DNA of 64,000 bases, from the sequence record PP216084, one strand, 5' to 3'. Shown piece after piece: positions 38,795 through 54,450 of the stretch (the stretch's first letter is position 1; each line of letters starts with the position of its first letter). Source of the DNA: Escherichia phage vB_EcoS_HZ_ZJUN2. A program made the translations under genes and the position numbers. A model generated the notes under the pieces. It saw only the letters and a list, made by a program, of their open reading frames with translations, had not been told where the DNA came from and did no database searches.

Positions 38795-39067
38795 TTAATC
38801 TTTACTTCCTTTGATAATACCTAAGTTATACACGGCTAACATGGCTTTGAGAGTTGGATCTTGAGACTCATTACATAGGTTCAAGAATCCTTCTTCATCC
38901 CAATGTTCCACATTACCAAACATATCGACTTTAAGTACAATTTTGTTAAGATCAGGCTGAGCAACAGCCACATGATAGAAATTAGTAGGTTCAACTAAGT
39001 CTAAGCCTACCCCATTAGGGTCAACAAAATTATTTACTTCCTGAACTTCCAAATCCACCTTCTCCAC
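38795..39067 (-). CDS. Hypothetical acidic protein, 90 aa
   Basis: ORF in track; overlaps dUTPase start by 38 nt. Confidence 0.45.
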   Translation of the reverse strand: MEKVDLEVQEVNNFVDPNGVGLDLVEPTNFYHVAVAQPDLNKIVLKVDMFGNVEHWDEEGFLNLCNESQDPTLKAMLAVYNLGIIKGSKD

Positions 39068-39476
39068 GATCAGTCTCCTCTAGTTCGTCAACGATTTCAA
39101 AATTATGAGTTGAGTAGTGTGGCACTACTACTAGCTGACAAAGTCTTTCAAAATTCTCCAGAGTTTGAATTTCAGAACCATAGTTATAAAGGTTCATCTT
39201 AATAGTTCCACGATAGTCTGAGTCGATCACTCCTGCGGTATTTGCAATCATCAAATGACGTTTACCTAAAGAACTACGAGGAACTACCAAACCGAACCAA
39301 CCTCGCGGAATTTCCACCGCGACACCGGTGTCAATCATCAAGGATTTGCCTGGTGCAATAGCACGTAAATCTGCAGCAGGATTAGTACCAAAGAATGCTC
39401 GCAGGTCCATACCTGCGGCATCTTTGGAACCAATCTTAGGCATACAATCTGGATGAGTTAATTTAATTTTAATCAT
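39030..39476 (-). CDS. dut: dUTPase, 148 aa
   Basis: Motifs AAGMDLRA, PRSSLG, GVIDSDYRG typical of trimeric dUTPases. Confidence 0.8.
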   Translation of the reverse strand: MIKIKLTHPDCMPKIGSKDAAGMDLRAFFGTNPAADLRAIAPGKSLMIDTGVAVEIPRGWFGLVVPRSSLGKRHLMIANTAGVIDSDYRGTIKMNLYNYGSEIQTLENFERLCQLVVVPHYSTHNFEIVDELEETDRGEGGFGSSGSK

Positions 39477-40348
39477 TGTTCTGCAATCTCCAAAATATCT
39501 TTTGTAAACTTATCTAATACATCTTGACCTACAGCAGCAATAGCATCCACACAGTAGGTAGGTAAATCAACCAGAATTAGGTTTCGATAAAGCAATTCTT
39601 CCGAAGCATTTAAATTCTGTATATATTTCTGTTTTCCAGGCAATGGAAGCTGATCAATAATATCCAGAACGTTACCAAATTCACGAATAATATTATACCC
39701 GCGTTTTGCCCCAATACCTTCAACACCTCGGATATTATCCCCTAAATCACCCATAATTGCTTTCAAAGAGATAAACTGCTCTACATCGTCAACACTATGA
39801 TGCTCATACATATCACGAAGATGATATTCACGGCGTGTTGTGAAAGAGAAGCGAGAAACTTTATCTGTTAATAAAGTATCCCAGTCACCGTCTGTAGAAA
39901 TCAACCAAATGTGGTCATATAGATGCCCGATTAGCTTAACAATATAGGCTGCCATGTCATCTGCCTCTACACCACGAATAGTGAATGTTGGGAATGTAGT
40001 TTCACATAGTTCGAAAGCATCTTTCAAATACTCGAAGAACTGCTCATCTAACGCTTTCTCCTCTTCCGTACGCTGAGAGTATTTCTCATCTCGATTCCCT
40101 TTATACTCGGGGAGATGCTCCAGGCGGAATGCAGACTTCCCTTTATCTCCTAAAACTATTGTAGTTCTAGCAGAATAAGATTTTGCAAGAGACTGAATAG
40201 TGGAAACATAACTTGAGGCAAATGGTTTTTTACTATTGTTATGCTTGAAGCGAAAGCCTAAGTTAGTTCCATCGACAATCATTAGATTACGACGGGAAGC
40301 CATTTCAGCTTCCTCTTCTTCAATAAATTTTCCCCAGGATTTACTCAT
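39473..40348 (-). CDS. D15: Flap endonuclease / 5'-3' exonuclease (D15-like), 291 aa
   Basis: N-terminal MIVDGTNLGFRF PIN-like nuclease motif, helix-hairpin-helix region; length equals recalled T5 D15. Confidence 0.8.
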   Translation of the reverse strand: MSKSWGKFIEEEEAEMASRRNLMIVDGTNLGFRFKHNNSKKPFASSYVSTIQSLAKSYSARTTIVLGDKGKSAFRLEHLPEYKGNRDEKYSQRTEEEKALDEQFFEYLKDAFELCETTFPTFTIRGVEADDMAAYIVKLIGHLYDHIWLISTDGDWDTLLTDKVSRFSFTTRREYHLRDMYEHHSVDDVEQFISLKAIMGDLGDNIRGVEGIGAKRGYNIIREFGNVLDIIDQLPLPGKQKYIQNLNASEELLYRNLILVDLPTYCVDAIAAVGQDVLDKFTKDILEIAEQ

Positions 40349-40830
40349 TATTTAATTAAGTCCTCAACAGATGCATGATGTAGCCACGGCTCAAATAAAC
40401 CAATTACGATTTCCATGTCTTTCTTATTTAACACCATATGGGTACGACTCATTAAGTTGTCAACCATCGGGTCTGAGCTATCCAAAGCTATTAACCACTG
40501 TCCTCTGTCTTTTTTGAATATTAATGCAGGTTTGGAGTTCATCTGCTCACCTTCACGTGAGCACTGCTGCCACCATTTCTCTAGGGTGGATTCGCCAACA
40601 TTAAATAAATTACTTGATATATTATCATCTTTATACCACTTAACTTCGAAGCAGTATTTACTAATGTGTCCGCTTTGTGGTGGAAGGTAGATGTCACCTT
40701 TCAGTCCGTGGCTCTGGCCAAAAGCACCAGAGCCAGGAACACGTTCCCACTCAAGACCTGTACGTTCACGTAAAATATCTCTTACCTGATATTCACCACG
40801 TTTACCCTTCTCTCTACTATCTACAGCCAT
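40348..40830 (-). CDS. D14-like protein, 160 aa, possible resolvase-like nuclease
   Basis: KGKRGEYQVRDILRE...VPGSGAFG resembles Hjc-type resolvase N-terminus; weak. Confidence 0.4.
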   Translation of the reverse strand: MAVDSREKGKRGEYQVRDILRERTGLEWERVPGSGAFGQSHGLKGDIYLPPQSGHISKYCFEVKWYKDDNISSNLFNVGESTLEKWWQQCSREGEQMNSKPALIFKKDRGQWLIALDSSDPMVDNLMSRTHMVLNKKDMEIVIGLFEPWLHHASVEDLIK

Positions 40831-41339
40831 TATTCCTCTGGGAAATTTAATACTGCGAAATCACCGAAGTATTCTTTTGCTTTAATATCATATGCTTTGG
40901 CGGCCTCCTCTAGAGTATTAAAAGATCCTAAGTTCTCTCTAATACCAGTATTAGGGTTCTTAATTCTAGCCCTGGGTTTACCATCTCTACCGTTGGGGAA
41001 ATCTAAACCTTTATACTTAGTAGTCTTAGATCTAGAAGCTCTATTTTGGGCTTGCTGGGACTTAGAAGCATTACGTAAGTTATCTGGAGTATCATTTTGT
41101 CTATTTCTATCTTTATGATCCACTGAGTCTGCCCAGGTACCGTTTGTCATAAAGTAAATTAAATCGTATACTCTATATTCCGTCCCCTTAATACTTGTTC
41201 TATAATATCCATCTTTCGATAGGGATCCAACTCGAGACCCTCTTTTAGCTGATCCTACCGATTTTCTATAGAATAGAGTACCATCCCTAATTTCATACCT
41301 ATCCTGTAGGAACTCTATAGTTATATCTTGCTTTTTCAT
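40830..41339 (-). CDS. HNH homing endonuclease with AP2 DNA-binding domain, 169 aa
   Basis: HNH_3-like DHKDRNRQNDTPDNL and AP2-like YKGLDF...NTLEEAAKAYDIKAKEYFG. Confidence 0.65.
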   Translation of the reverse strand: MKKQDITIEFLQDRYEIRDGTLFYRKSVGSAKRGSRVGSLSKDGYYRTSIKGTEYRVYDLIYFMTNGTWADSVDHKDRNRQNDTPDNLRNASKSQQAQNRASRSKTTKYKGLDFPNGRDGKPRARIKNPNTGIRENLGSFNTLEEAAKAYDIKAKEYFGDFAVLNFPEE

Positions 41340-43174
41340 TCTAAGTAGGAGAATCCTTCTGCATCTTTTTTGACAGTAATCTTATGAGCCAGTGGGTGAG
41401 AATGCCCATGAGAAACAATGATAGAATTTAGACTTTCTTCCTCATTTAATAGTTCAACAAGGGTGTCAAGTCCTTTAGTATCAATAAAGCTAATTACTTC
41501 ATCGAGGAATAGAAGATTAATATTAACTTTACTAATAGATGTTAGTAGCATTCGAATAGCTAACAGTGTTGCTAGGTTGATTCTACTTTGCTGACCAGTA
41601 GAGCAGTTCTCCATACTGGTACGATTTCCATCATTGAAGATTACTACTTGTAATTTTGTTTCATCAAGTTCAAATCCAAGTGCGAACTTACCCCCAGTCA
41701 TAATGGAAAGGTATTTATTAATTAGTTCTTCAAATACTTTCACACTATGCTCTAGCTTATATCCTACCAGATTTTTCAATGCGGCGATTAGAATATCGAG
41801 ATCAGCAACAGCCTCTGATACCTCATCCAGTTTGGAAGTAATCTCAGACATTTCTGCCTCAGCTTTCTCAATCTGTTCTAGTTTCGCCCTATATTTTGCA
41901 TTGGCTAACTCGACATTTGCATTATGCTCTTTGGCAATTGCAACCTTAGAACGGCCATCAGCGATTTCCTGTTCTAATTGTCGGATTTGCACCTGTAGGT
42001 TTTGCACATTGAGTTCTTCAAAAGAAGCATCACTCATTGAATTTTTGAACTCGTCTCTAGCTACCACTGCTTTATCCAAAGCATCCTTTGCTCTAGTATA
42101 CGCAACGTACTCAAGTTGTTCTTTCTTCAACTGTTCTAACTTAGCTTCAAGAGATTGCTTCTCTTTGAACAGAGGATCATATTCTGTTCTAGCCATATTC
42201 ATTGCTTTTTGAGCAGCAGTTGTATCCAGATGAGTACCACAAGTAGGACATTCAGTATTTGCAGCCTCTTGCTTGAACTTCTGATAACGTTTCTTAACTT
42301 CGCTCGCACGTGAGGTCACAATCGTTAGGTCACGCGTAACACTCGAGATCTCTTCATTTTGGTCGGTGGGCGCAGGCAAATTTTTGAAAGGCTCGAAAGA
42401 TTGTTCGGCAACTTGTACAGCTTTGTCCAAATTACGCAATTTAGTAATATTAGCCTCTTGAGACTTGGCTAATGCCGCCTTAATTTTCGATTCAGTAAGT
42501 TCTTGTGCTAATGGCTCTTCATCAAACTCCGGTACTTCTACAGGTTCCTGCAAAGTTCCCAGATTATTCTTTCCATTAAGGATTTTCGTAATTACAGCCA
42601 TTTGGCCCTGCAAATTATTTAAGGTATTTGCTATTTCTTTACGGTCAGCCTTAATAGTTTCTGACATTTCTTTATACTGTTCTTGATTGAACAAGTTAAC
42701 AAGAAAAGCCTTACGTGTTGCATCTGTTGCTTTTAGAAAGTCTAGATTGGAACCCACTGATTGATAAATCAGTTTGGTGAATGTTTGGAAGTCACCACCC
42801 ATAATCTCTTCAATCATCTTGTATGTTTGAGTTGCCGTGTGGCCACTAATATCTTCTCCATTCTTAATAAGAGTTACTTTAGCAGTTGATTTAACTACTT
42901 TATGCAATTCATACTCATCTTCATCTTTTGAGAAGTAAGCGTGCATATCATACTCTTTTTTCGGAGAAGACCAGGAGAACAGAGCGTCCTTCTTAATACC
43001 GCGTGAGTTCTTATTATAAAATAGTTCTTCAATAACAGTGGCGATGGTGGATTTTCCTAATCCATTGCCACCAATTAGCTGAGTAACTGGATTCTTATCG
43101 AAATGAATTACGATGTCCTTACCGTAAGACATAACGTTACTAAATTTTAGTGTCTTAATTGTAATCTTTGACAT
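41336..43174 (-). CDS. D13: SbcC/Rad50-like recombination ATPase (D13-like); ORF track extends to 43255 but ATG at 43174 is the likely start
   Basis: N-terminus MSKITIKTLKFSNVMSY, Walker A GGNGLGKST, long coiled-coil with CPTC zinc hook, D-loop LLFLDEV. Confidence 0.75.
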   Translation of the reverse strand: MSKITIKTLKFSNVMSYGKDIVIHFDKNPVTQLIGGNGLGKSTIATVIEELFYNKNSRGIKKDALFSWSSPKKEYDMHAYFSKDEDEYELHKVVKSTAKVTLIKNGEDISGHTATQTYKMIEEIMGGDFQTFTKLIYQSVGSNLDFLKATDATRKAFLVNLFNQEQYKEMSETIKADRKEIANTLNNLQGQMAVITKILNGKNNLGTLQEPVEVPEFDEEPLAQELTESKIKAALAKSQEANITKLRNLDKAVQVAEQSFEPFKNLPAPTDQNEEISSVTRDLTIVTSRASEVKKRYQKFKQEAANTECPTCGTHLDTTAAQKAMNMARTEYDPLFKEKQSLEAKLEQLKKEQLEYVAYTRAKDALDKAVVARDEFKNSMSDASFEELNVQNLQVQIRQLEQEIADGRSKVAIAKEHNANVELANAKYRAKLEQIEKAEAEMSEITSKLDEVSEAVADLDILIAALKNLVGYKLEHSVKVFEELINKYLSIMTGGKFALGFELDETKLQVVIFNDGNRTSMENCSTGQQSRINLATLLAIRMLLTSISKVNINLLFLDEVISFIDTKGLDTLVELLNEEESLNSIIVSHGHSHPLAHKITVKKDAEGFSYLE

Positions 43175-44132
43175 ATTTCGCAGCTCTAGCCAAGATTCTA
43201 TCAATGTCGCCTTGAGATAGCTTCTCGACTTCACGGAAGTAAAGTTCAAGTTCACCTAACATATCAAGATCAACAAGATTTAACTTAGCGTCTTTAGTAA
43301 CTCGATGGTTAATCTTCTTATCTAATAAATCAGAGTCTTTGATAGACTTTAGTTGAACAACGTCGCCAGTAACTTCATAGACTACACGATCATAATCACT
43401 AGGTTCCATCTCTTCACCAGCTCCGATTGTTTTACGAATCAGTTGTGGTAAATCCCCTAGTTCAATCCATTCTACTTTTAATGTGTCGGTATCAACGATA
43501 AAGCAACCATTTGTACCTTTTGTGCGTTCTCTATGGAACGTTGTAGTTAATGGAGAACCTGGGTAGAGAAGTCTAGTAGATCCGATAGTCTGGCTATTAG
43601 TATAAGAATGTAAATCGCCAGCAATTACAGTATCATAACAGTTGTACTTAGTTAGATCAATTTCTGGTTTTACATGTGGAGGGATTTCACCACGAACATG
43701 CGTGAAACATAGTTTTGATTCAGCAGGTTTCCATTTGGATTTATGGATCTCATCATACGGAACAATATCAAATTCAGGGGAACGATATGGTTTGGTAATT
43801 ACTTCCCACTTACCACTCGTTACCTTATTAATAACCCCCGCGTAATGATACAGACACGAAATGGTTTTAGTTATTAATTCATGATTACCTGTAAATACCA
43901 TTCCTATATGATCTAGTCTAGACATAAATTTTTCTAGAAGTTCTACTTCTTCCGACGACGGGTCGGAATGATCAAATAAATCACCGCCAATAATATGCAA
44001 ATCACAGTTATGATTATGGAATATATCATTTAACCGTTCTCCTAGCATCAGGAAGCGACGCTTCTGCCATTCTTTGGGTATCTTATCTTGGCCCAGCTTA
44101 ATATGATGATCAGCACTAAATAATATTCTCAT
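43155..44132 (-). CDS. D12: SbcD/Mre11-like nuclease (D12-like), 325 aa
   Basis: Phosphoesterase motifs SADHH, GGDLFDH, GNHE. Confidence 0.8.
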   Translation of the reverse strand: MRILFSADHHIKLGQDKIPKEWQKRRFLMLGERLNDIFHNHNCDLHIIGGDLFDHSDPSSEEVELLEKFMSRLDHIGMVFTGNHELITKTISCLYHYAGVINKVTSGKWEVITKPYRSPEFDIVPYDEIHKSKWKPAESKLCFTHVRGEIPPHVKPEIDLTKYNCYDTVIAGDLHSYTNSQTIGSTRLLYPGSPLTTTFHRERTKGTNGCFIVDTDTLKVEWIELGDLPQLIRKTIGAGEEMEPSDYDRVVYEVTGDVVQLKSIKDSDLLDKKINHRVTKDAKLNLVDLDMLGELELYFREVEKLSQGDIDRILARAAKYVKDYN

Positions 44133-44135
44133 AAG

Positions 44136-44162
44136 TTAAAAAGAAAGGGGCCGAAGCCCCTC
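44136..44162 (-). terminator. Hairpin with UUCG loop plus U-run (attenuator/terminator candidate)
   Basis: aggggc-cgaa-gcccct at 44145-44160 with A-run 44138-44144 on plus strand. Confidence 0.45.
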
Positions 44163-44168
44163 TATTCA

Positions 44169-44942
44169 TTAGTCATCCAGATCGCTTGCAGCTTCTTGGT
44201 CAATACCTTTCTGGGAACCAGCATTGCTGTTACCAGATTTGGCATCATCATCTTTATTCTCACGACCTTCCATGAAGGCTTGAATTGCTTCTTTCTGCTC
44301 TTCATAGGTAGGAACCGGATAGGTTTGTTCCAGAGAAGGAACTTTCTCGAACTTAATGATGTCGCCATCTTCGTCACACATAGCTTCACCAATCAGATCT
44401 ACATCCGCAGCATATTGCTTAGATTCTGCACTGTTAGGATCTTGCAGCTTAATCTGGAACTGCATAGCAGCAATCTGCTGTACATCATACTCAGTATCGA
44501 AACCTTTGCCTTTTTTCTCGATAGAAATATCAATATCAAACGGAGTTGCCAGGTTCAACTGCTTCATGATAGACTGGATGCCTTTCAGAATAGTAGCCTT
44601 GACTTCCATTACTTTCAGTTTGTTATCAGAACGGTCAATAACAAAGGCGATATAGTTTTTCTTCGGTTTCAGCGGAACACGATTACCATCTTTATCCAGC
44701 TCTTTCTCGAAGAAGCCCATCTCATGAACCGGATCAGCTTTACCACGAACAAAGCTCTCTTTGTCACGGTTAAAACGGAGACATTCGAAAGGAGCTACGT
44801 TACCCTCTTTATTAGTCAGCCAATAGACATAACGTGGAAGAACACCAGAAACGATACGAACACGAGTGATGCCGTTGTTGAACTTCAGGAATTCGATTTT
44901 ATCGTTAGAACCGCCAGTAGTTTCGCCCCAAGACTTAGCCAT
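44169..44942 (-). CDS. D11-like protein, 257 aa, with acidic C-terminal tail
   Basis: C-terminus DDDAKSGNSNAGSQKGIDQEAASDLDD; function not recognised. Confidence 0.5.
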   Translation of the reverse strand: MAKSWGETTGGSNDKIEFLKFNNGITRVRIVSGVLPRYVYWLTNKEGNVAPFECLRFNRDKESFVRGKADPVHEMGFFEKELDKDGNRVPLKPKKNYIAFVIDRSDNKLKVMEVKATILKGIQSIMKQLNLATPFDIDISIEKKGKGFDTEYDVQQIAAMQFQIKLQDPNSAESKQYAADVDLIGEAMCDEDGDIIKFEKVPSLEQTYPVPTYEEQKEAIQAFMEGRENKDDDAKSGNSNAGSQKGIDQEAASDLDD

Positions 44943-45219
44943 ATTTTATTTCCTCTTTAAAGATTAATTTCGATTTGTTAATTGCGATTAGTGGGTTAGT
45001 GTCGATTACTAAACGTGGTATCCATACTGGAACATATTGCATGTCCAAGCTAGGATCGTTTGTAAACTTGTATTCGGCATAATTTCGTAGACTTAAAATT
45101 CCTAGATATTCTGCCAGTTGTCTATTAGACAATTTATTTGGATTATCAACTATTGTTGATTCATTCAAAATGAATGAGGAACCGACCAATAATTGGTGAG
45201 CATCAGGCTCTGTAAGCAT
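44935..45219 (-). CDS. Hypothetical protein, 94 aa
   Basis: ORF in track; downstream of tandem early promoters. Confidence 0.4.
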   Translation of the reverse strand: MLTEPDAHQLLVGSSFILNESTIVDNPNKLSNRQLAEYLGILSLRNYAEYKFTNDPSLDMQYVPVWIPRLVIDTNPLIAINKSKLIFKEEIKYG

Positions 45220-45326
45220 TCTTTTGAATAGCTTAATAATTAGGTCGGAATTTCCTCTAGCTAGTAAGTATAGCTTTTCATAATCGAAGAATTTAATTTT
45301 TGTTTTCTCCTCGAATTTATGTATAT

Positions 45327-45356
45327 ATTATACTAGATTTCGAGAGAATTTAGCAA
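45327..45356 (-). promoter_or_regulatory. T5-type early promoter (TTGCTA-18-TATAAT on minus strand)
   Basis: Reverse complement gives TTGCTA...TATAAT then conserved leader ATAAATTCGAGGAG. Confidence 0.5.
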
Positions 45357-45427
45357 CTAAAATTTTTATTTTTCTGCTTCGGACTTTCTTATCAATCCGA
45401 AACTTTCTCTCTCAAATTTATGTATAT

Positions 45428-45457
45428 ATTATACATCATTTATGAGCTGTTGCCAAA
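45428..45457 (-). promoter_or_regulatory. T5-type early promoter (TTGGCA-17-TATAAT), overlaps 3' end of helicase gene
   Basis: Reverse complement; followed by leader ATAAATTTGAGAGAG. Confidence 0.45.
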
Positions 45458-46792
45458 TGCAATTTTAGCTAATTGAACTGCTTTCTCCGGAGTCATAGTA
45501 ATAGTTTTCCACCCGTTGTTACGATATACTGCCATACGTCCAGAAGCCTGTCTTAGTCCAGTGCCACCTTTCATAATTAGATCTACAACAATAGGGTCTA
45601 GTTTACCCTCGACAATACGTTGAACACGTCCTGCAAGCTGTTCAATGAGAGATTCATTATTAATGAGACTTCCCATTATTAAACAAGATAACTCATTAAG
45701 AGAAATACCTTCAGAGAAGATACTTTGAGCTGCTGCAAGTACACAAGGTCCACCTTTTGCTATATCTTCCTGAATTTTTAATCGGTCATCTAAGTGGGTT
45801 GCCCCTATAATTTCATATGTTGTAACACCACGCTGTGCAAGAGCTTCTAGTACTGTTTGGATTAACTCTGTTCTGTCACTTACAATGAGTACTTTATGCC
45901 CCATATTCACATATAAATGTGCTAGATTTATAATAGTCTCTCGATATTCAGGATGGTTGTACACATCATTAGCACGTAATGCCCAGGGTACGTTTTGGTT
46001 TCCTGATAACTCAACAGGTACGGAGTACCTATGGATTGTAGGTGCAACAGTATTATTAACCGGTGGGCTAAAGATCTTATATCCAAAGAAATCTTTGAAC
46101 ATAACTTGTAGACCATCTTTACGTTTTAATGTTCCAGATAGTCCAATCTTATAGCGAGCACATGATATTTCTAGGAAGTTAGTGAAAGTTGTGGCCACAC
46201 AATGGTGAACTTCATCAACTATAACAGTACCGAATACTTTAGACAGATTATTCGCATGTTTATTCACTGTTTGAATATTACTGACCACAATTGGTGGATC
46301 AATATTGTATTTCCCAGAACCTATGATACCCGGTTCAAACCCAAACCATTTACGAACTTCTGCCGCCCACATTTCACGAATAGATGTGTTGGTACAAATT
46401 ACCAAAGTTTTCTGGCCAAATTTATACGCAAGTGCAAGGGCTAGGATAGTTTTACCAAATCCAGGCTTACCATTAATAATACAGGTATCATCGCATTCTT
46501 CGTATATTGGAAGCTGATCTTCTTCACGCAGCTTGAACTTAGGTTTTGGTATATCTACCGGAGCTAATGTGCGTTTATCAACTAATTCATATTTTACTCC
46601 TTTAACATCTAGTAAATCCAGACGCGTGATAGGAATCCACTTAATCTCTTTAGCAACAACACCACTATTCTTATACATAATAGGGTATTTACTAGTCATT
46701 GTCTCTATGTGATAAGTGGTTTGCTTACTACAATAATCCCAAAGTTCATCATCGGGCTTGAAATATGCTTTATTAGATATAACAACCTTCAT
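45440..46792 (-). CDS. D10: SF2 DNA helicase (D10-like), 450 aa
   Basis: Walker A GKPGFGKT, DExH box VIVDEVHH, helicase C-terminal motifs. Confidence 0.8.
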   Translation of the reverse strand: MKVVISNKAYFKPDDELWDYCSKQTTYHIETMTSKYPIMYKNSGVVAKEIKWIPITRLDLLDVKGVKYELVDKRTLAPVDIPKPKFKLREEDQLPIYEECDDTCIINGKPGFGKTILALALAYKFGQKTLVICTNTSIREMWAAEVRKWFGFEPGIIGSGKYNIDPPIVVSNIQTVNKHANNLSKVFGTVIVDEVHHCVATTFTNFLEISCARYKIGLSGTLKRKDGLQVMFKDFFGYKIFSPPVNNTVAPTIHRYSVPVELSGNQNVPWALRANDVYNHPEYRETIINLAHLYVNMGHKVLIVSDRTELIQTVLEALAQRGVTTYEIIGATHLDDRLKIQEDIAKGGPCVLAAAQSIFSEGISLNELSCLIMGSLINNESLIEQLAGRVQRIVEGKLDPIVVDLIMKGGTGLRQASGRMAVYRNNGWKTITMTPEKAVQLAKIAFGNSS

Positions 46793-47286
46793 AATTTTAT
46801 TCTAAGTCTAGGAATTTCAGGCTCCTCTTGATGGACTTGATAAATAACAGGGCTATTATTTACCAGAATATAGCTTATATAAGCTGGAACATAGGATAAT
46901 ACAAATGGATATGGAACTTTAGCTACATAGCATTGGTATTTTCCGTTATAAATTCTAGCTGAATGCAAAACTTTAGAGGTGACAACATCATAGAACGTAG
47001 TTTTCTTCCAGTTAATAAGATTTCCATCAGAATCTATAAATTGGCTACGCTTTGACCCAACTAATTGAGACAACATTGATATTCTACCCCTAATAGGATA
47101 GAGCTTGTATGGTAATTCTTTCCGTTTCTCAAATAGAATAAGTCTACGTTGAGAAAAAGTGCCAGGCAACTTCCTGTTATCTAGCACATATTTATTATAC
47201 CTTGTTGTAATTACGGAATAATCACCTTCTTGCTCAATTGATACAAACGCCCGTAAAGCATATACGGGCAATTTGAAATCAAGCAC
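46789..47286 (-). CDS. Hypothetical protein, 165 aa
   Basis: ORF overlapping both neighbours by 4-8 nt; function not recognised. Confidence 0.45.
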   Translation of the reverse strand: MLDFKLPVYALRAFVSIEQEGDYSVITTRYNKYVLDNRKLPGTFSQRRLILFEKRKELPYKLYPIRGRISMLSQLVGSKRSQFIDSDGNLINWKKTTFYDVVTSKVLHSARIYNGKYQCYVAKVPYPFVLSYVPAYISYILVNNSPVIYQVHQEEPEIPRLRIKL

Positions 47287-49846
47287 CGAGAATCCTTCTC
47301 ACGTTATCCAAATCTTTACATACAGCAATAAACTTATCATCCTTGTATTTGCTATGATCTGGATGCTCTTTATCCATTGCAGCTAGTTTCTTATACTCGA
47401 ACTCTGCATCAAGTAATACACCCTTGACATAACGAGTATATTCATCATCATCAATACAAGCGATTGATGGATGCTGCTTCTTCATCTTACCACAAGAGTA
47501 GTCACGAGAACCTCCAGCTTCAGAATCAGAATCAATACCAATCGGACAACCAGGAATACTGATACCACGATCTTTCTGAATATTACGAATCAGGATTTCA
47601 TTGTATTGATCGATCAAATCCTCACGAACAATAGCAACTACGGAGTCATGAACCAGCATAACAATCTTCATCTCTTGTTCTAGACCAAGAGAAATGATCT
47701 CATTATCTGCATCTACAGCACCTAAAAGGAGACTATCAGAAGAAGCAGACTGAATGATTGCGTTAAATCCAGAACGGATTTCTTCACCCTGAACACCACG
47801 GTCTTCGGAGTGGATATTATGCAGACGACGTTTACGACCAAAGTGACTATAGATAAATCCATGATTCTTGATCTGATCGTGGCACTTATCAATCCAACGC
47901 TTAAGCTGTGGGAACTGACCGAAGTAAGTTTCAATGTACTCTTTAGCATCTGCAACAGTACATTCTACAAACGGTTCGCCTGTCTTAGCAGCTTGTTCCA
48001 AAAGAGCCTCATTAACAGAATGAGCTACTTTAGCCGGGCCAGAACCATACAAAATACCAAAGGTGATTGCTTTAGCTGCTTGACGCAGGGCTGGGAATAA
48101 CTTTTTAACATCACGAGGTTCGCATTGGAGCTTAAATACCATGTGTGCGATGTTAGAGTGGAAGTCAGGGTATTTATCTGGTTCATTTCTCATGTTGATA
48201 AATACTTGTTGCATATTTCTATCACCAGATAGAACAGCAGCATAATAAACTTCCGCAGTTGTTAAGTCCCATGCAATTACACGATACCCAGGAGGAGCTA
48301 CTACACAACCCTTGATAATAGATTCATCACGAGGTAACTGTTGCAGGTTCAGTTTACCAGAAGAACTCAGGCGACCAGAAGTAGTCATATGCTCATGGAA
48401 GCCAGTACGAATGCAACCATCAGCATCAATGCTCAGAAGAATCTTCTCAACGTAAGTAGAGATCAGCTTAGTCAGCTTACGAATCTCTAGTAGGGTCTTA
48501 GCAATTGGATGTTGCGTAGACAATTCGTTCAGAGCTTCTGCATCTGTAGAGTCTGCTCCAGTATCAGTCAATTTACCTGTTGGAGTTAAGCCAACATAAT
48601 CAAACAGAAGAACACGGAGTTGTTTAACAGAGTTTGGGTTAAACGCTTCGTTCTGATCTTTCTCTAGCTGAACGACTTCTGGATAAGTATACAGCTTTTC
48701 ACGAGCTTTATTCAGATTATGAGTTAACTGGTACTGTGCTTCTTTCAAGCGATCAATAGAAATTGGTACACCACGATCCTCAACACGCTGGAGAAATACA
48801 CAACCAGGCATTAGAACATCGTAATATAGACTGCAAAGTTTTTCATTCTTCTCAATTTTTGGTAAGAAGAAATTGTGCAAACGTAGGGTGGCATCAGTAT
48901 CTTTCGCAGCGTAAGGCCACATAATATCAAACGGAATTAAATCATAGGTGAAATCTTCTTTCTTGATTTTATGTGCTTTGCAGTAATCCTCCTTGAACTT
49001 ATCTAGTTCAAAGTCATAGTCACCCATATCGGTATACTTCATTGCTAGAGATTTCAAGCCATGAGTACCACGACGCTCATCTAGAGCATAATGCTGCAAC
49101 ATTGTATCATGGAGCCTGCGTTCTTTATGTGCTTTATCAAAAGCAAGTCCCAGATGGTACTTATAAAAGTGCATATCAAACTTCAAGTTGTGAAAAACAA
49201 TAGTGTGGTTTTCACTATCCAGAATTTTCTGGAGATAATATACTGCAACCTCTGTGAGACAATCAGAATCGATATACACACCCTGATACTCTTGGTGAGA
49301 CATAGAAACACCAAGCAGATAACCATCTCGACAGTATAGTGCTGAGGTTTCGGAGTCGAATGCGACAGGTCCGATAACCATATTATACACCATCTTGATA
49401 TATTCTTCCGCCTCGTCAGGGTCAGTAATAGGACGGTAATCACCAGCTTTTGCAATCTTCTCACGACCATTGATAATATCGTGGATATTTTCTACTGTTG
49501 CATCGAAAACTGGTTTCATTTCAGGCTTAAAGTGTAACTGGGCTGGGCTGATACTCGCAATCCAGTTAGCATATCCATTATACTCTACACGTTTACCAGT
49601 ATAGTCACCAATGCCTTTCTTACCTGCGAAATACAGGAAAGGTTCAGCACCTACTAGTATAACAAAATCGTAATCATTCGGATCAAATGGGTTTTCTGGT
49701 GTTCCAATAGTAATGTGCTTTTTAAGCAAACGACCGGATAACCTCTCGTTACACATATGGAATACATCAACTTCCTCGCCGTATAGCTGGAAATGTTTAT
49801 CGTAACGAGTGTTATTTAGAGCTTTATCAACTACTGCGATTTTCAA
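47279..49846 (-). CDS. DNA polymerase, family A, 855 aa, with 3'-5' exonuclease domain
   Basis: Pol A motif B RQAAKAITFGILYG, motif C LVHDSV; exo motif FHNLKFDMHF; apparent TTG start after AAGAGGAGA RBS. Confidence 0.9.
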   Translation of the reverse strand: MKIAVVDKALNNTRYDKHFQLYGEEVDVFHMCNERLSGRLLKKHITIGTPENPFDPNDYDFVILVGAEPFLYFAGKKGIGDYTGKRVEYNGYANWIASISPAQLHFKPEMKPVFDATVENIHDIINGREKIAKAGDYRPITDPDEAEEYIKMVYNMVIGPVAFDSETSALYCRDGYLLGVSMSHQEYQGVYIDSDCLTEVAVYYLQKILDSENHTIVFHNLKFDMHFYKYHLGLAFDKAHKERRLHDTMLQHYALDERRGTHGLKSLAMKYTDMGDYDFELDKFKEDYCKAHKIKKEDFTYDLIPFDIMWPYAAKDTDATLRLHNFFLPKIEKNEKLCSLYYDVLMPGCVFLQRVEDRGVPISIDRLKEAQYQLTHNLNKAREKLYTYPEVVQLEKDQNEAFNPNSVKQLRVLLFDYVGLTPTGKLTDTGADSTDAEALNELSTQHPIAKTLLEIRKLTKLISTYVEKILLSIDADGCIRTGFHEHMTTSGRLSSSGKLNLQQLPRDESIIKGCVVAPPGYRVIAWDLTTAEVYYAAVLSGDRNMQQVFINMRNEPDKYPDFHSNIAHMVFKLQCEPRDVKKLFPALRQAAKAITFGILYGSGPAKVAHSVNEALLEQAAKTGEPFVECTVADAKEYIETYFGQFPQLKRWIDKCHDQIKNHGFIYSHFGRKRRLHNIHSEDRGVQGEEIRSGFNAIIQSASSDSLLLGAVDADNEIISLGLEQEMKIVMLVHDSVVAIVREDLIDQYNEILIRNIQKDRGISIPGCPIGIDSDSEAGGSRDYSCGKMKKQHPSIACIDDDEYTRYVKGVLLDAEFEYKKLAAMDKEHPDHSKYKDDKFIAVCKDLDNVRRILGA

Positions 49847-49907
49847 ATTTAATCTCCTCTTGGTAAGTAAGTATAACTTCAGTGTTTCTTCTCTAACTTA
49901 CCAATAT

Positions 49908-49937
49908 ATTATACCAAATCTTTAAGCGATTCAGCAA
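49908..49937 (-). promoter_or_regulatory. T5-type early promoter (TTGCTG-18-TATAAT) overlapping primase stop codon
   Basis: Reverse complement; drives DNA polymerase gene. Confidence 0.5.
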
Positions 49938-50799
49938 CTAAAATTTCAATACGTTTTGCTAACATATCAATTTCATCTTTGTTTAAATCACCAGGATCTT
50001 TGCCTTCGGGCAGAAGAAAGTTAGCAACTACAGGTGTTAAACGCGTTTTTGTACGAATTAGCTTGGCCAACGCTTGTGCAGCTTTATTACCCGAAGCATC
50101 ATTATCTAGTAAGATAACAACAACTTTTACACCAGCAATAATATAAGGACTGAACTTATCTGCAATGTTATCTGAAGTGAACTGATGTGTACCAAAGCAG
50201 CAAGAAGCATAGTCTATACCGTTATCCTCTAGGTTCAGCATATCAAAGATACCTTCAACTAGAATAAGAACTGGAGTATTATATCGTACAGGGAAAATCG
50301 GTGGTGAAACTTGTTTTGGTTTTACTAAGTATTTAGGAGGGGCAGAACTGTTTATAGAACGACCCAAAAATAGGATATTGCGTCCAACAGCATCTGTGAT
50401 TGGGAATACAATTCTGCCTTCCCAGTCTGCTTGATGTTGGAAAGCAAAATATTTCTTCAAGGTCTTAGAACTTATACCTCGGAAATCACCTTCGAAAAGG
50501 TAAGCAGATTCAGGAATTGCAAGATTCGTTGATCCATTCCTAATCTCTGAAATCTTTTTACGTACCTGTGATAGTCTTGGAGACTGTCGGTACTGAGTCT
50601 CATTAAAATAATGGTAAATGCTCGGTATACCTTTACCGAAGCCACAACTCAAGCAGTGCATAATACCTGTTTCAGGATCAATACGCAAACTTGGGTGTTT
50701 ATCGTCATGATCTGGATTGAGACAACATATAAGAATATCACCACCTGTATCTTTATACTCAATGCCTTTCAGATCAAGTAGTTCTGTTATTCTACTCAT
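49909..50799 (-). CDS. DNA primase, 296 aa (zinc-binding N-terminus plus TOPRIM)
   Basis: CCLNPDHDDKH...HCLSCG zinc motif; TOPRIM EGIFD and LLDNDASG. Confidence 0.75.
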   Translation of the reverse strand: MSRITELLDLKGIEYKDTGGDILICCLNPDHDDKHPSLRIDPETGIMHCLSCGFGKGIPSIYHYFNETQYRQSPRLSQVRKKISEIRNGSTNLAIPESAYLFEGDFRGISSKTLKKYFAFQHQADWEGRIVFPITDAVGRNILFLGRSINSSAPPKYLVKPKQVSPPIFPVRYNTPVLILVEGIFDMLNLEDNGIDYASCCFGTHQFTSDNIADKFSPYIIAGVKVVVILLDNDASGNKAAQALAKLIRTKTRLTPVVANFLLPEGKDPGDLNKDEIDMLAKRIEILVAESLKDLV

Positions 50800-51329
50800 G
50801 AGTTTAGCTCCTCTAGTGCAGGATAATTAGATATATCAAAAATCTCTATAACAGCACGTTCTCCATGTAGATTAGTTCTCAGTATATTTGCTGAGTTTAC
50901 AGCTAATTCTAACTCTTCATACTTAAATCTGCCACCATTTTTAAGGTTGCCATTAGAGTCTCTTACCTGTACCCTCCATTTTTGTTTTTCAATATCCCAA
51001 GCAACTCCTAAGTACCCAGATTTACTACATGCTGTTTTATTTCTACTATTTTCCTGGGCTGTAGCATCTCTTAGATTACACCACCTATTATCAAAGGGTA
51101 TTCTGTTTACATGGTCTACTTTTTCAGGCAGTGTATTCTCCATAAATAGAAAAGCCATACGATGAGCTTTGTAATCCTTTCCATCTATGCCAATAATTAT
51201 ATAGTCATTAGAGTCTTTTCTAGTTACTATACTCCCAGCTTTCTGATTGCCTCTAGATACTTTTCTAGTAAACTCCCCAGTTTCTGGGGAGTAATCAAAT
51301 AACTCTTTTAGCCTTTCCTGTGTTATCAT
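50796..51329 (-). CDS. HNH homing endonuclease with AP2 domain, 177 aa
   Basis: HNH_3-like DHVNRIPFDNRWCNL and AP2-like YLGVAWDIEKQKWRVQV; inserted between helicase and primase. Confidence 0.65.
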   Translation of the reverse strand: MITQERLKELFDYSPETGEFTRKVSRGNQKAGSIVTRKDSNDYIIIGIDGKDYKAHRMAFLFMENTLPEKVDHVNRIPFDNRWCNLRDATAQENSRNKTACSKSGYLGVAWDIEKQKWRVQVRDSNGNLKNGGRFKYEELELAVNSANILRTNLHGERAVIEIFDISNYPALEELNS

Positions 51330-52849
51330 ATATCGCTGGCCTGTTCACCTGTTGAATTTTCAGCTTTGTCTTTCTTAGCACGTTTAGGTTGAGCCGGCTT
51401 ATCCTTCTCAATAGGGATAACGAACTCAGCTTCCATTTGAGATATATCTTCCATTGCTAGGTTGGTAGTGTTATCCATTCGCAGAGTTTCCCAGTTCATT
51501 TTAGGCATAAACTTCACGCTATCAGAAGAACGAGTCTTAACGAAGTCAAACATAATAGCACCTTGACCATTATCAGCTTTTGCAGCATTAAGATTAGCAG
51601 CCATGTCTGCGGAATCAAGAATCCCCTTTGACATACGTGTTCTACCATCTTGATCGATCTGGTAAGGAGCTACACCAGCCACGTTATGTTTCTGGCAGAT
51701 AGATTTGAAAGACGAGCTAACAACCATCTGTTCTTTCCAGTCATACATATCAATGGTTTTAGAGTCTGGAAGTCGGGTTTGGTTAATATAGTCCAGTAAG
51801 GCTACTGTAACTTTATCTCCATATCTAGCAACTAATTTATTTAGTTCTACGTCAACTGTTGTAATAGACAGCTCAGGGTCATAAACAATAATCATAGGAG
51901 TATGTAGTTCATACCCTTCTATTAGCTTACTCTCCATATCGTAGAAATCACTCATCTTAGCCATTGTGTATTGTTTAACGAAGTTATCAAAAAGCTCTTC
52001 ACCACCATTAAACATTCTAGCTCTAGTTCTGGCTAATCTCAACAGAGCTGCACCTTCTAGAGTATTATTACGCATTGCTAGTGCTGATACACCTGCTAAC
52101 ATGGCTAGATTACGTCTAAATACTTCATGTTCTTTCATCTCAATTGAGAAGTATGGAGCAATATCTCCATTCAAATATTGCTGAACCTGTATGTTTGAAC
52201 AGATAATGGATTTACCAGTACCACGCCAACCACCAAGCAGTAACGTTTCTGTGCGAGCTAAACCAATTTGAGCGTCGAACTCATTACAAATACCAAGAGC
52301 GATTAAGTTCAGTTTGGTATCTTCTTCTCTCTGGAAAATACGCATGTTATCTGCGTTGAATACTTTTCCAGTATTCGTTACTTTCTCTTCTAATTTTAAG
52401 TGAAGGGAGGCAACTCGGTTGAGAATTTCTCCCTGATCCAGCATTGTTAAATCTTGAAGCACGTCTGTTTCTAGAAGCTTCAGGAATAGATCCTGCGTAT
52501 ATTCGGCTTCTAGGACTTCAAGTGCCTGTTCCATGCTCACTTCTGGAATTTGAGTGTTAGCTAAGACGACTAGAGCTTGAGAAAGGCGGGCGTTCCTATT
52601 AGCTTCAAGCATAAGTGCGTCAATGGACGGCATTGTGTTATATTTTTTATAATAATTCTGGACGGCTTGGTAAATTGAGGAGAAAGCGTCATTAAAATGA
52701 TCTTTATGCAGTTTTGAGAATGTTTCCAATGCTATTTGCTTCTGTTCTGAAGCAAGAAGCATCTTCAACACTACAGCTTGCACGTTAAACAAGGTCATTC
52801 TCCTTTGCACGCTTTCGTGCCTTCTAAATGCAAAAAGGGGAAGGAGCAT
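51326..52849 (-). CDS. Replicative DNA helicase, DnaB-like, 507 aa
   Basis: RecA-like core with Walker A GGWRGTGKS; true start possibly at internal Met18. Confidence 0.75.
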   Translation of the reverse strand: MLLPLFAFRRHESVQRRMTLFNVQAVVLKMLLASEQKQIALETFSKLHKDHFNDAFSSIYQAVQNYYKKYNTMPSIDALMLEANRNARLSQALVVLANTQIPEVSMEQALEVLEAEYTQDLFLKLLETDVLQDLTMLDQGEILNRVASLHLKLEEKVTNTGKVFNADNMRIFQREEDTKLNLIALGICNEFDAQIGLARTETLLLGGWRGTGKSIICSNIQVQQYLNGDIAPYFSIEMKEHEVFRRNLAMLAGVSALAMRNNTLEGAALLRLARTRARMFNGGEELFDNFVKQYTMAKMSDFYDMESKLIEGYELHTPMIIVYDPELSITTVDVELNKLVARYGDKVTVALLDYINQTRLPDSKTIDMYDWKEQMVVSSSFKSICQKHNVAGVAPYQIDQDGRTRMSKGILDSADMAANLNAAKADNGQGAIMFDFVKTRSSDSVKFMPKMNWETLRMDNTTNLAMEDISQMEAEFVIPIEKDKPAQPKRAKKDKAENSTGEQASDI

Positions 52850-52861
52850 AGCCCCCTCCCC
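52832..52861 (-). terminator. Imperfect GC hairpin plus U5 run, terminator candidate
   Basis: gggga-agg...cc-tcccc stem at 52837-52861 with A5 at 52832-52836 on plus strand. Confidence 0.4.
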
Positions 52862-52880
52862 TTAGGTTTAATTTACCAGA

Positions 52881-54423: not shown

Positions 54424-54450
54424 ATTTCTTCCTTATCAATTTATATAAAT

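What the first reader, a model, noticed from the sequence alone, without database searches (positions are those of the whole stretch)
40830..51329. Two paralogous HNH-AP2 homing endonucleases embedded in the replication gene cluster
ORFs 40830-41339 and 50796-51329 share the same HNH_3 plus AP2 architecture and each sits between two essential replication or recombination genes with 1-4 nt overlaps, the usual signature of selfish homing endonuclease genes.
Basis: partly seen in the sequence, partly recalled or inferred. Interest (0 to 1): 0.4.

Follow-up and report, generated by a model that had tools for sequence, protein, structure and literature searches.

The report
Two homing endonuclease genes in T5-like phage
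Two small selfish nuclease genes sit between essential replication and recombination genes of a T5-like phage; both are real and very probably mobile, but both are already annotated in public T5-like phage genomes, so the finding is ordinary.

Summary
The window is a T5-like phage (Demerecviridae). ORF 40830-41339(-) ("HEG1", 169 aa) lies between D13 (SbcC/Rad50-like) and D14. ORF 50796-51329(-) ("HEG2", 177 aa) lies between the DnaB-like helicase and the primase. The junctions overlap by ATGA or TAATG.

Both proteins pass the Pfam HNH_3 cutoff. The AP2 domain fails the Pfam cutoff but is confirmed another way for each. HEG1 matches solved plant AP2/ERF domains directly. HEG2 matches them through a homologue profile and a pLDDT-93 model.

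The two proteins are only 28% identical, so they are distant family members and not recent duplicates.

HEG2 is T5 hegJ ("putative H-N-H-endonuclease P-TflX"). HEG1 is absent from T5 and is annotated as a homing endonuclease in SP3, polluks and others.

Among 30 close relatives, the D13|D14 site is empty in 28 and the helicase|primase site in 21. All four presence/absence combinations occur.

Every carrier genome has a cluster of substitutions 40-75 bp from the insertion. For HEG2 these lie in the primase 5' end. For HEG1 they lie in the D13 3' end. I read these as target-site immunity patches.

Both genes are intact and under purifying selection. Verdict: free-standing homing endonuclease genes, already known; nuclease activity is untested.

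The parts
40830..41339 (-). HEG1: 169-aa HNH_3 + AP2 free-standing homing endonuclease gene, inserted between D13 and D14
   Evidence: ORF. HNH_3 30.4 bits. AP2 through PDB hits to WRI1, ERF096 and AtERF1, and I-HmuI hit. 100% identical to Salmonella phage SP33; 90-94% to SP3, JLBYU43, polluks and others, several annotated 'HNH homing endonuclease'. dN/dS 0.10 and all 10 orthologues intact. Caveat: Gln96 aligns with the I-HmuI residue I recall as the metal-binding Asn96.
50796..51329 (-). HEG2: 177-aa HNH_3 + divergent AP2 homing endonuclease gene, orthologue of T5 hegJ (T5.120, 'putative H-N-H-endonuclease P-TflX'), inserted between the DnaB-like helicase and the primase
   Evidence: ORF. HNH_3 32.6 bits. 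92% nt identity to T5 hegJ at the same position. Profile hits to AP2 and I-HmuI. AF2 model pLDDT 93.3 with AP2 fold. dN/dS 0.05.
41336..43174 (-). D13 (SbcC/Rad50-like ATPase), upstream neighbour of HEG1; its stop codon overlaps the HEG1 ATG (ATGA). The mechanical ORF starts at GTG 43255; relatives annotate a 612-aa protein, which puts the ATG at 43174
   Evidence: Pfam AAA_15, SMC_N and SbcC_Walker_B; annotation in relatives.
40348..40830 (-). D14 (phage PDDEXK endonuclease), downstream neighbour of HEG1; its ATG overlaps the HEG1 stop (TAATG)
   Evidence: PF24608, E 1.8e-47; junction read.
49909..50799 (-). DNA primase (zinc ribbon + Toprim), downstream neighbour of HEG2; its ATG overlaps the HEG2 stop (ATGA)
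   Evidence: Pfam Toprim_2, Zn_ribbon_DnaG and DNAG_N; junction read.
51326..52849 (-). DnaB-like replicative helicase (T5 D6), upstream neighbour of HEG2; its stop overlaps the HEG2 ATG (ATGA)
   Evidence: PF03796 DnaB_C; T5 annotation.
41390..41402 (-). Predicted HEG1 target region and immunity patch in D13, just after the IIVSH H-loop codons. T5 reads CAT ACG CAT CCA TTA; the window reads CAT TCT CAC CCA CTG (one Thr-to-Ser change, the rest synonymous), 52-64 nt before the D13 stop
   Evidence: Present in 10/10 HEG1+ genomes, in 2/2 genomes with another endonuclease gene at this site, and in 1/26 empty genomes (L005); sequence read. That this is the cleavage site is inferred.
50725..50758 (-). 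Predicted HEG2 target region and immunity patch in the primase 5' end (nt +41 to +74, just before the zinc-ribbon Cys codons); all changes in the patch are synonymous except one Glu-to-Asp in L061
   Evidence: Positions +50 and +65 differ in 10/10 HEG2+ against 0/18 HEG2- genomes, and +62 in 9/10. At least four different patch haplotypes occur among carriers, while empty alleles are almost invariant there; sequence read. That this is the cleavage site is inferred.
40774..41451 (.). 678-bp mismatch-free tract shared with Salmonella phage SP33, covering HEG1, 56 nt of D14 and 112 nt of D13 including the patch; the flanks are about 3% diverged
   Evidence: Mismatch list; segment identities. Fits a recently shared recombination or co-conversion tract centred on the gene.
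40834..40838 (-). GAGGA Shine-Dalgarno-like sequence for D14, supplied by the 3' end of HEG1; absent at empty sites (…GAATAAAACATG)
   Evidence: Function inferred.
50808..50813 (-). GAGGAG Shine-Dalgarno-like sequence for the primase, supplied by the 3' end of HEG2. At empty sites the primase ATG sits in the helicase-stop ATGA context, which HEG2 occupies in this window
   Evidence: Function inferred.

Best explanation
Both ORFs are free-standing homing endonuclease genes of the I-HmuI-like HNH (HNH_3, His-Me finger group 2) + AP2 family, carried by a T5-like phage.

Proposed mechanism. Steps 1 and 5 are partly shown by sequence. Steps 2 to 4 are inferred from how characterised phage homing endonucleases work.
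1. Each gene is transcribed inside a replication/recombination operon. It is translated at a low level by termination-reinitiation at the ATGA overlap with the upstream gene.
2. In a cell co-infected by a related phage lacking the gene, the C-terminal AP2 domain recognises a sequence in the neighbouring essential gene. For HEG1 this would be the D13 3' end just after the H-loop codons. For HEG2 it would be the primase 5' end just before the zinc-ribbon codons.
3. The HNH domain nicks or cuts there, 40-75 bp from the empty insertion point.
4. Recombinational repair from the carrier genome copies the endonuclease gene and flanking DNA into the recipient.
5. The carrier genome is protected by the substitution patch in its own copy of the target. 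Each insertion also carries a Shine-Dalgarno sequence for the downstream gene, so the host operon is not harmed.

The two genes are independent acquisitions of the same family, not a duplication.
For: Family: HNH_3 above cutoff; I-HmuI and AP2 matches; AP2 fold in a pLDDT-93 model; phrog_99 'HNH endonuclease' at E 1e-44 and 1e-57. The HNH_3 + AP2 architecture is a described homing endonuclease family (PMC5714182; PMC10448857, citing Magnani 2004).

Sporadic, precise insertion:
- The 12-kb region matches 513 phage records, but full-length HEG1 occurs in only 20, and HEG2-like sequence at 80% identity or more in about 45.
- In IMG/VR, 28/30 and 21/30 close relatives are empty, with clean junctions.
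- HEG1 occurs in both Tequintavirus and Epseptimavirus.
- All four presence/absence combinations exist. Window, JLBYU43 and polluks are +/+. SP3, SP33 and LmqsSP1 are +/-. T5 and SP01 are -/+. Many are -/-.
- The same sites hold different endonuclease genes in other phages: SHSML-45 and phA11 at D13|D14, and a 67% variant in NR01 at helicase|primase.

Immunity patches: perfect or near-perfect association of clustered, almost entirely synonymous substitutions with carriage. Carriers show several distinct haplotypes, which argues for repeated selection at that spot and against simple hitch-hiking.

Recent transfer: a 678-bp identical tract with SP33 centred on HEG1.

Still functional: all orthologues are intact, with dN/dS 0.10 and 0.05.

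Literature: differences among T5-like genomes are attributed mainly to homing endonuclease genes (PMC10644984).
Against: - No biochemical or genetic test exists for either protein. The T5 name is 'P-TflX', where P means putative, and I found no paper characterising it.
- HEG1 departs from family-conserved positions. Gln96 replaces the Asn that aligns with the I-HmuI residue I recall as the metal ligand Asn96. Tyr-Asp replaces the conserved His-Arg. Both changes are in all HEG1 orthologues, so HEG1 may be weakened, altered in chemistry or inactive.
- The substitution patches are correlations among related genomes without phylogenetic correction. They could partly reflect linkage with the insertion.
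- The HEG1 patch is shared with genomes carrying a different endonuclease gene at the same site, so it cannot be assigned to HEG1 specifically.
- HEG2's identity to its closest relative (SP01) is not higher than in the flanks.
Confidence: 0.85

Rival explanations
1. The genes are mainly inter-phage competition weapons (marker exclusion). They cut essential genes of co-infecting relatives to the benefit of the carrier phage, and their own spread is a by-product. Bracketing the D13-to-primase block could mobilise the whole replication module as a 'HEG island'.
For: The predicted targets lie in essential or near-essential genes (D13 H-loop region, primase zinc-ribbon region). The two genes bracket a roughly 9.5-kb replication block. 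HEG islands flanking core operons are described in PMC10448857. Relatives have further endonuclease gene sites at D11|D12 and D5|helicase.
Against: The molecular mechanism is the same as homing, so sequence data cannot separate the two readings. The two genes assort independently, with all four combinations seen. That argues against obligatory joint mobilisation of the block.
Confidence: 0.35
2. One or both proteins, HEG1 especially, are no longer nucleases. They would be domesticated or decaying DNA-binding proteins, for example an AP2-type regulator, that persist by linkage.
For: HEG1 carries Gln at the position of the Asn metal ligand and lacks the family's conserved His-Arg pair. It has no promoter of its own.
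Against: The Asp74-His75 pair, Asn87 and Asn99 are retained. dN/dS is 0.10 with every orthologue intact across two genera. A very recent shared tract is centred on the gene. The sporadic distribution argues against a needed regulatory role. HEG2 has all motif residues.
Confidence: 0.1
3. They are accessory replication or recombination factors of the phage, for example the enzyme that makes the T5 single-strand interruptions, retained because of their position in the replication cluster.
For: They sit inside replication/recombination operons. I-HmuI-type HNH enzymes are nickases (my own knowledge). T5-like virion DNA carries site-specific nicks (PMC10644984; nick annotated in T5 D13).
Against: T5 itself lacks HEG1, and 21/30 close relatives lack HEG2. 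The annotated T5 nick consensus Pu-GCGC does not occur in either predicted target region. The annotated nick in D13 is about 1 kb from the HEG1 site.
Confidence: 0.03

Closest known systems
T5 hegJ (T5.120, YP_006948.1, 'putative H-N-H-endonuclease P-TflX')
   Same: HEG2 is its orthologue: 92% nt identity, 95% aa identity, same 177-aa length, same position between D6 (DnaB-like helicase) and the primase, same ATGA overlaps.
   Different: The alleles differ, and so does the synonymous patch haplotype in the primase 5' end. The closest allele is in Salmonella phage SP01, at 99.3% nt. The T5 protein is itself uncharacterised.
HNH homing endonuclease between D13 and D14 in Salmonella phages SP33, SP3, polluks, 1-23 and LmqsSP1, and Escherichia phages JLBYU43 and HildyBeyeler
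   Same: HEG1 is the same gene: 100% nt identity to SP33, 90-94% to the others, and the same junctions.
   Different: Nothing substantive. Several records call it 'hypothetical protein'.
I-HmuI (PDB 1u3e), intron-encoded HNH nicking homing endonuclease of Bacillus phage SPO1
   Same: Same HNH_3 / His-Me group 2 catalytic domain, with the Asp-His…Asn-Leu-Arg…Asn motif. Probably acts close to, but not at, the insertion point.
   Different: I-HmuI is intron-encoded and uses NUMOD/HTH DNA-binding modules. The window's proteins are free-standing and use an AP2 domain. HEG1 has Gln at the Asn96 position.
HNH-AP2 homing endonucleases of phages, cyanobacteria and protists (Magnani et al. 2004; 'IPA-HNH' genes of ICP1 in PMC10448857)
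   Same: N-terminal HNH plus C-terminal AP2 architecture, free-standing, clustered beside essential genes.
   Different: The ICP1 proteins are too divergent for the HNH_3 Pfam profile (PMC10448857). Both window proteins pass it.
T4-type free-standing homing endonucleases (Seg and Mob proteins, e.g. SegB, MobE)
   Same: Intergenic position between conserved genes, cleavage at a distance inside a neighbouring gene, immunity through nucleotide polymorphism, and co-conversion of flanks (PMC2330249 and my own knowledge of SegF/SegG/MobE). Searches show the matching sequence signatures here.
   Different: Seg proteins are GIY-YIG enzymes. Mob proteins are HNH enzymes of a different Pfam group without AP2. 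Here the inference rests on comparative sequence only.

Membership tests
HNH_3 / His-Me finger group 2 (I-HmuI-like) endonuclease | Match to PF13392 above the gathering threshold | tested here: met
   30.4 bits (HEG1) and 32.6 bits (HEG2) against a cutoff of 24.8. I-HmuI 1u3e hit at E 1.8e-4 for HEG1 and 3.3e-8 for the HEG2 profile.
HNH_3 / His-Me finger group 2 (I-HmuI-like) endonuclease | Catalytic motif Asp-His (general base), Asn-Leu-Arg, and Asn metal ligand | tested here: inconclusive
   HEG2 has D72, H73, N85 and N94/N97, all invariant or nearly so in its family. HEG1 has D74, H75, N87 and N99, but Gln96 aligns with I-HmuI Asn96 in all orthologues. The residue roles in I-HmuI are from my memory of Shen et al. 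2004 and were not checked here.
HNH-AP2 homing endonuclease family | C-terminal AP2 DNA-binding domain | tested here: met
   Pfam AP2 is below threshold (13.8 and 14.1 bits against 33.3). HEG1 nevertheless hits solved AP2/ERF domains at E 3.8e-10. The HEG2 profile hits them at E 2.6e-10, and the HEG2 model's top fold matches are AP2 domains. HEG2's AP2 domain is divergent.
Free-standing homing endonuclease gene (functional class) | Presence/absence polymorphism at one precise site among closely related genomes, without disruption of neighbouring genes | tested here: met
   Site 1 is empty in 28/30 and site 2 in 21/30 close relatives. Junctions are clean and the neighbours intact.
Free-standing homing endonuclease gene (functional class) | Carrier genomes differ from non-carriers at a nearby target sequence (self-immunity) | tested here: met
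   Clustered substitutions associated with carriage: primase +41 to +74 (10/10 against 0/18 at two positions) and D13 -64 to -52 (10/10 against 1/26). The association is shown. That this is the recognition or cleavage site is inferred.
Free-standing homing endonuclease gene (functional class) | Site-specific cleavage or nicking of the empty allele, and biased inheritance in mixed infection | not testable with these tools
   Needs an in vitro cleavage assay and phage crosses. I found no published data for these two proteins.
Orthologue of T5 hegJ | High identity and conserved genomic position | tested here: met
   HEG2: 92% nt identity over 534/534 nt, between D6 and pri. HEG1 has no T5 counterpart.

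The most novel reading that the evidence does not exclude
The comparative data locate the targets of two uncharacterised T5-family endonucleases to about 15-35 bp. One lies just after the D13 Rad50-type H-loop codons and the other just before the primase zinc-ribbon codons.

Several independent escape haplotypes exist, including a Thr-to-Ser change in D13, and different endonuclease genes occupy the same sites in other phages. Together these hint at an ongoing arms race in which the endonuclease genes shape both the nucleotide and the protein sequence of core replication genes.

The most novel reading not excluded is that HEG1, with Gln in place of the metal-binding Asn, has altered chemistry (a strict nickase or a binding-only protein) yet still drives gene conversion. 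Alternatively, the pair could act together as a HEG island that moves the whole D13-to-primase module.
Probability: 0.15. Interest if true: 0.4.

Novelty: already known. Interest (0 to 1): 0.2.

Why it matters
It matters little beyond correct annotation. Homing endonuclease genes are already recognised as the main source of gene-content differences among T5-like phages (PMC10644984), and the HNH-AP2 architecture is a described family.

The modest added value is practical. The comparison gives concrete, testable target predictions for two uncharacterised enzymes: window 41390-41402 in D13 and 50725-50758 in the primase gene. It also shows that each insertion brings a ribosome-binding site for the gene downstream. 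This could guide cleavage assays or the engineering of T5-like therapeutic phages, where such genes bias marker inheritance in mixed infections.

Tried and rejected
- Pfam AP2 at normal thresholds gave nothing, and at E up to 10 only sub-threshold partial hits. AP2 was therefore established through PDB sequence, profile and fold searches.
- phmmer of HEG2 alone against the PDB gave only noise.
- tblastn of both proteins against the window found no further family members.
- The promoter scan of 39000-53000 gave fewer sigma-70-like sites than shuffles (39 against 44.8) and none specific to the endonuclease genes. I dropped the idea of an endonuclease-specific promoter. The terminator-like sites match the operon boundaries annotated in T5.
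- A literature search for hegJ, P-TflX and F-TflVIII found no characterisation. One paper reading failed on a term that was too short.
- I considered a recent in-genome duplication and rejected it: 28% identity, and HEG2 is closer to homologues from unrelated sources.
- I considered a link to the T5 genomic nicks and rejected it: the genes are absent from many nicked relatives, including HEG1 from T5, and there is no GCGC in the predicted targets.
- The HEG2/SP01 comparison shows no identity tract centred on the gene, so the co-conversion argument is made only for HEG1/SP33.

Full report
**Context.** The window is part of a T5-like phage genome (Demerecviridae, Markadamsvirinae). The 12-kb stretch 40000-52000 matches 513 phage records by megablast, and 430 of them cover at least 80% of it. 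These include T5 itself at about 95% identity and many Salmonella and Escherichia phages. All genes in 39000-55600 are on the minus strand. By Pfam and the T5 annotation they run in this order:
- split NAD-ligase
- D5
- DnaB-like helicase (D6)
- HEG2
- primase
- DNA polymerase
- T5.123
- D10 helicase
- T5.125
- D11
- D12
- D13
- HEG1
- D14
- D15 flap endonuclease
- dUTPase

**Observation check.** ORF 40830-41339(-) encodes 169 aa (HEG1) and ORF 50796-51329(-) encodes 177 aa (HEG2).
- Three junctions overlap by ATGA: D13 stop/HEG1 start, helicase stop/HEG2 start, and HEG2 stop/primase start. The HEG1 stop/D14 start junction overlaps by TAATG.
- Both proteins pass the Pfam HNH_3 gathering threshold, at 30.4 and 32.6 bits against 24.8.
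- The AP2 claim does not pass Pfam, at 13.8 and 14.1 bits against 33.3, so I tested it separately.
- HEG1's C-terminal 65 residues match solved plant AP2/ERF domains directly: WRI1 E 3.8e-10, ERF096 2.6e-5, AtERF1 1.8e-4. Its N-terminal half matches I-HmuI at E 1.8e-4.
- HEG2 alone finds nothing relevant in the PDB.
- A database search for HEG2 returned 117 homologues, about a third of them with precomputed AP2 plus HNH_3 hits.
- A profile of HEG2 plus 42 of these homologues (alignment A1) hits WRI1 (2.6e-10), I-HmuI (3.3e-8) and TEM1-AP2 (2.8e-6).
- An AlphaFold model of HEG2 from that alignment has pLDDT 93.3 and a C-terminal three-strand sheet plus long helix.
- The model's best Foldseek PDB matches are AP2 domains (1gcc, 7et5, 5wx9; probability 0.99-1.00; rmsd 2.8-3.7 Å over about 62 columns).
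- The shared HNH_3 + AP2 architecture is therefore confirmed, with a divergent AP2 domain in HEG2.

**How the two proteins are related.** They align at 28% identity over about 145 residues (E 2e-10), and both match phrog_99 end to end. HEG2 is 37-50% identical to proteins from unrelated metagenomes and bacteria, which is closer than it is to HEG1. They are members of one family that arrived separately, not a local duplication. No other copy is in the window.

**Identity with known genes.**
- HEG2 is the orthologue of T5 hegJ (T5.120, 'putative H-N-H-endonuclease P-TflX'). It shares 92% nt identity, the same length and the same neighbours. The nearest allele is in Salmonella phage SP01 at 99.3%.
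- HEG1 has no counterpart in T5, where D13 and D14 are adjacent. It is 100% identical to a 'hypothetical protein' of Salmonella phage SP33.
- HEG1 is also 90-94% identical to genes annotated 'HNH homing endonuclease' or 'homing endonuclease' in SP3, polluks, 1-23, LmqsSP1, JLBYU43 and HildyBeyeler. These span the genera Tequintavirus and Epseptimavirus.

**Distribution.** I fetched 51 IMG/VR loci around D14 and 78 around the primase, and measured the distance between the flanking genes.
- Among the 30 closest relatives (flanking protein at least 97% identical), the D13|D14 site is empty in 28. At empty sites 3 nt (AAC) separate the D13 stop codon from the D14 ATG.
- One of the two occupied sites holds HEG1 (SP3). 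The other holds a different HNH-AP2 gene only 46% identical to it (SHSML-45).
- The helicase|primase site is empty in 21 of 30, with the helicase stop overlapping the primase ATG by ATGA. It is occupied in 9, one of them by a 67%-identical variant (NR01).
- More distant relatives are empty at the helicase|primase site. Most are also empty at the D13|D14 site, though seven have unclassified 213-833-nt gaps there (L033, L036, L044, L048-L050).
- In GenBank, full-length HEG1 occurs in 20 of the 513 matching records, and HEG2 at 80% identity or more in about 45.
- All four combinations occur, so the two genes assort independently. Window, JLBYU43 and polluks carry both. SP3, SP33 and LmqsSP1 carry only HEG1. 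T5 and SP01 carry only HEG2. Many carry neither.
- Relatives also carry family members at two further sites that are empty in the window. These are D11|D12 (NR01, L005, SHSML-45, HildyBeyeler) and D5|helicase (L061, L073).

**Anatomy of the insertions.**
- At site 2 the insertion is exactly 530 bp. HEG2 takes over the ATGA coupling context that the primase uses in empty genomes, and the 3' end of HEG2 supplies a GAGGAG seven nt upstream of the primase ATG.
- At site 1 the D13 stop changes from TAA to TGA to create the ATGA overlap, and the 3' end of HEG1 supplies GAGGA upstream of the D14 ATG. Empty genomes read GAATAAAACATG at this junction, with no such motif.
- Neither gene has a promoter-like site above chance, and both lie inside operons.
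- I infer low-level, translationally coupled expression of the endonucleases, with compensation for the downstream gene.

**Substitutions linked to carriage.** I compared flanks of carriers and non-carriers position by position.

Site 2 (10 carriers, 18 empty):
- There is no association anywhere in the last 900 nt of the helicase gene. A tight cluster appears at primase nt +41 to +74.
- Positions +50 and +65 differ in 10/10 carriers against 0/18 empty genomes, and +62 in 9/10.
- All changes in the patch are synonymous except one Glu-to-Asp change in L061.
- Carriers show at least four different haplotypes, for example CTC to CTT or TTA, and GGG to GGT, GGA or unchanged.
- All 18 empty genomes read GACACAGGTGGGGACATCCTCATCTGTTGT.
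- This region encodes the residues just before the primase zinc-ribbon cysteines.

Site 1 (10 carriers, 26 empty):
- The cluster lies 52-64 nt before the D13 stop. T5 reads CAT ACG CAT CCA TTA. Carriers read CAT/CAC TCT/TCC CAC/CAT CCA/CCG CTG. One change is Thr to Ser and the rest are synonymous.
- It lies immediately after the IIVSH H-loop codons.
- The variant is present in all 10 HEG1 carriers. It is also present in both genomes with a different endonuclease gene at this site (SHSML-45, phA11), and in one empty genome (L005).

This is the pattern expected if the endonucleases recognise or cut these sequences in empty genomes and carriers are protected. That interpretation is an inference. 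The association was not corrected for phylogeny, although the multiple haplotypes argue against simple hitch-hiking.

**Signs of recent movement and of function.**
- Against SP33, the window has a mismatch-free tract of 678 bp (40774-41451). It covers HEG1, 56 nt of D14 and 112 nt of D13 including the patch. The flanks are about 3% diverged, and the next longest identical run nearby is 290 bp.
- No comparable tract surrounds HEG2 in the SP01 comparison.
- All 10 HEG1 and 9 HEG2 orthologues examined are intact. Mean pairwise dN/dS is 0.10 for HEG1 and 0.05 for HEG2, against 0.015-0.034 for the neighbouring genes. Both proteins are therefore maintained by selection.

**Caveat on HEG1.** In an alignment with I-HmuI and six family members from T5-like phages, HEG1 and all its orthologues have Gln96 where the others have Asn. 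That position aligns with I-HmuI Asn96, the metal ligand as I recall from Shen et al. 2004. They also have Tyr-Asp where the family has a conserved His-Arg. Asp74-His75, Asn87 and Asn99 are kept. HEG1 could therefore have altered or reduced activity.

The last 25 residues of HEG1's AP2 domain are nearly identical to those of the otherwise 46%-identical SHSML-45/phA11-type proteins. The last 75 nt are 94.7% identical. This suggests mosaic exchange between endonuclease genes at this site and possibly a shared target.

**Comparison with known systems.**
- HNH_3/I-HmuI-type nucleases joined to AP2 domains are a described class of homing endonucleases (PMC5714182; PMC10448857, citing Magnani et al. 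2004).
- Such genes clustering beside, and bracketing, essential phage genes has been described as 'HEG islands' (PMC10448857).
- Homing endonuclease genes are named as the main source of differences among T5-like genomes (PMC10644984; also PMC3326045).
[quoted passage not shown] 2004, cited in PMC2330249 and PMC3326045). These lie in the tRNA region, not here.
- I found nothing on hegJ/P-TflX or on the D13|D14 gene.

**Verdict.** Both genes are free-standing HNH-AP2 homing endonuclease genes (confidence about 0.85). They were independently acquired and are dispensable. They are already present, and mostly already annotated as such, in public genomes. The only additions here are predicted target/immunity patches and the ribosome-binding-site detail. 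Interest is low.

Noticed in passing
window 56419-57084 (-): 221-aa ORF with T5orf172/MUG113 (GIY-YIG-related), treble-clef zinc finger and CapR-homology domains. This is the architecture of T5orf172-type homing endonucleases described in PMC10448857, so it may be a third mobile nuclease gene in the window, of a different family.
   Followed up: no
window 53641-54423 (-) and 54623-55597 (-): The NAD-dependent DNA ligase is split into two ORFs separated by a 199-nt gap. The upstream ORF has the adenylation and OB domains. The downstream ORF has the HhH and BRCT domains. I did not check what the gap contains or whether relatives carry an insertion there.
   Followed up: no
window 44133-44168 (D11|D12) and 52850-52880 (D5|helicase); loci L001, L005 and L024 at about 674-1204; L061 and L073 at about 1434-2015; L137 6300-6510: Relatives carry further HNH-AP2 family members at these two intergenic sites, which are empty in the window. 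The replication module therefore has at least four insertion sites for endonuclease genes across the group.
   Followed up: partly
L005 (IMGVR_UViG_2974662754), D13 3' end, locus about 3930-3945: This genome has an empty D13|D14 site but carries the same substitution patch as the carriers. It could be a resistant empty allele, arising either from loss of the gene or from co-conversion without it.
   Followed up: partly
window 50680-50799 (primase first 120 nt) compared with L052-L086: Empty (HEG2-) genomes are unusually uniform in the first 120 nt of the primase gene (0.8-1.5% pairwise divergence, against 3-7% further in). Carriers differ by about 10% from one another there. The reverse holds in the helicase 3' end, at 1-2% among carriers against 3-6% among empty genomes. 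I have no firm explanation for this asymmetry.
   Followed up: partly
window 40830-40904; hits H61-H74: The 3'-terminal 75 nt or so of HEG1 are 90-95% identical to the ends of otherwise different endonuclease genes at the same site in phA11, phC11, Kenya-K36/K42, SHSML-45, Shivani and others. This suggests mosaic recombination between endonuclease genes.
   Followed up: partly
L139 3357-3358 (T5 record 78573-78574), inside D13: The T5 record annotates a major single-chain interruption (nick; consensus Pu-GCGC) within D13, about 1 kb upstream of the HEG1 insertion point. It appears unrelated to the predicted HEG1 target.
   Followed up: no
window 62594-62986 (-) and 62996-63424 (-): Two adjacent ORFs (130 and 142 aa) each contain two DUF7415 repeats, so they are tandem paralogues of unknown function.
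   Followed up: no
window 43175-43255 and 52835-52863: The mechanical ORF starts of D13 (GTG 43255) and of the helicase (ATG 52849) are probably too far upstream. Relatives annotate D13 as 612 aa and T5 D6 as 502 aa, and a strong terminator-like hairpin overlaps 52835-52863.
   Followed up: partly
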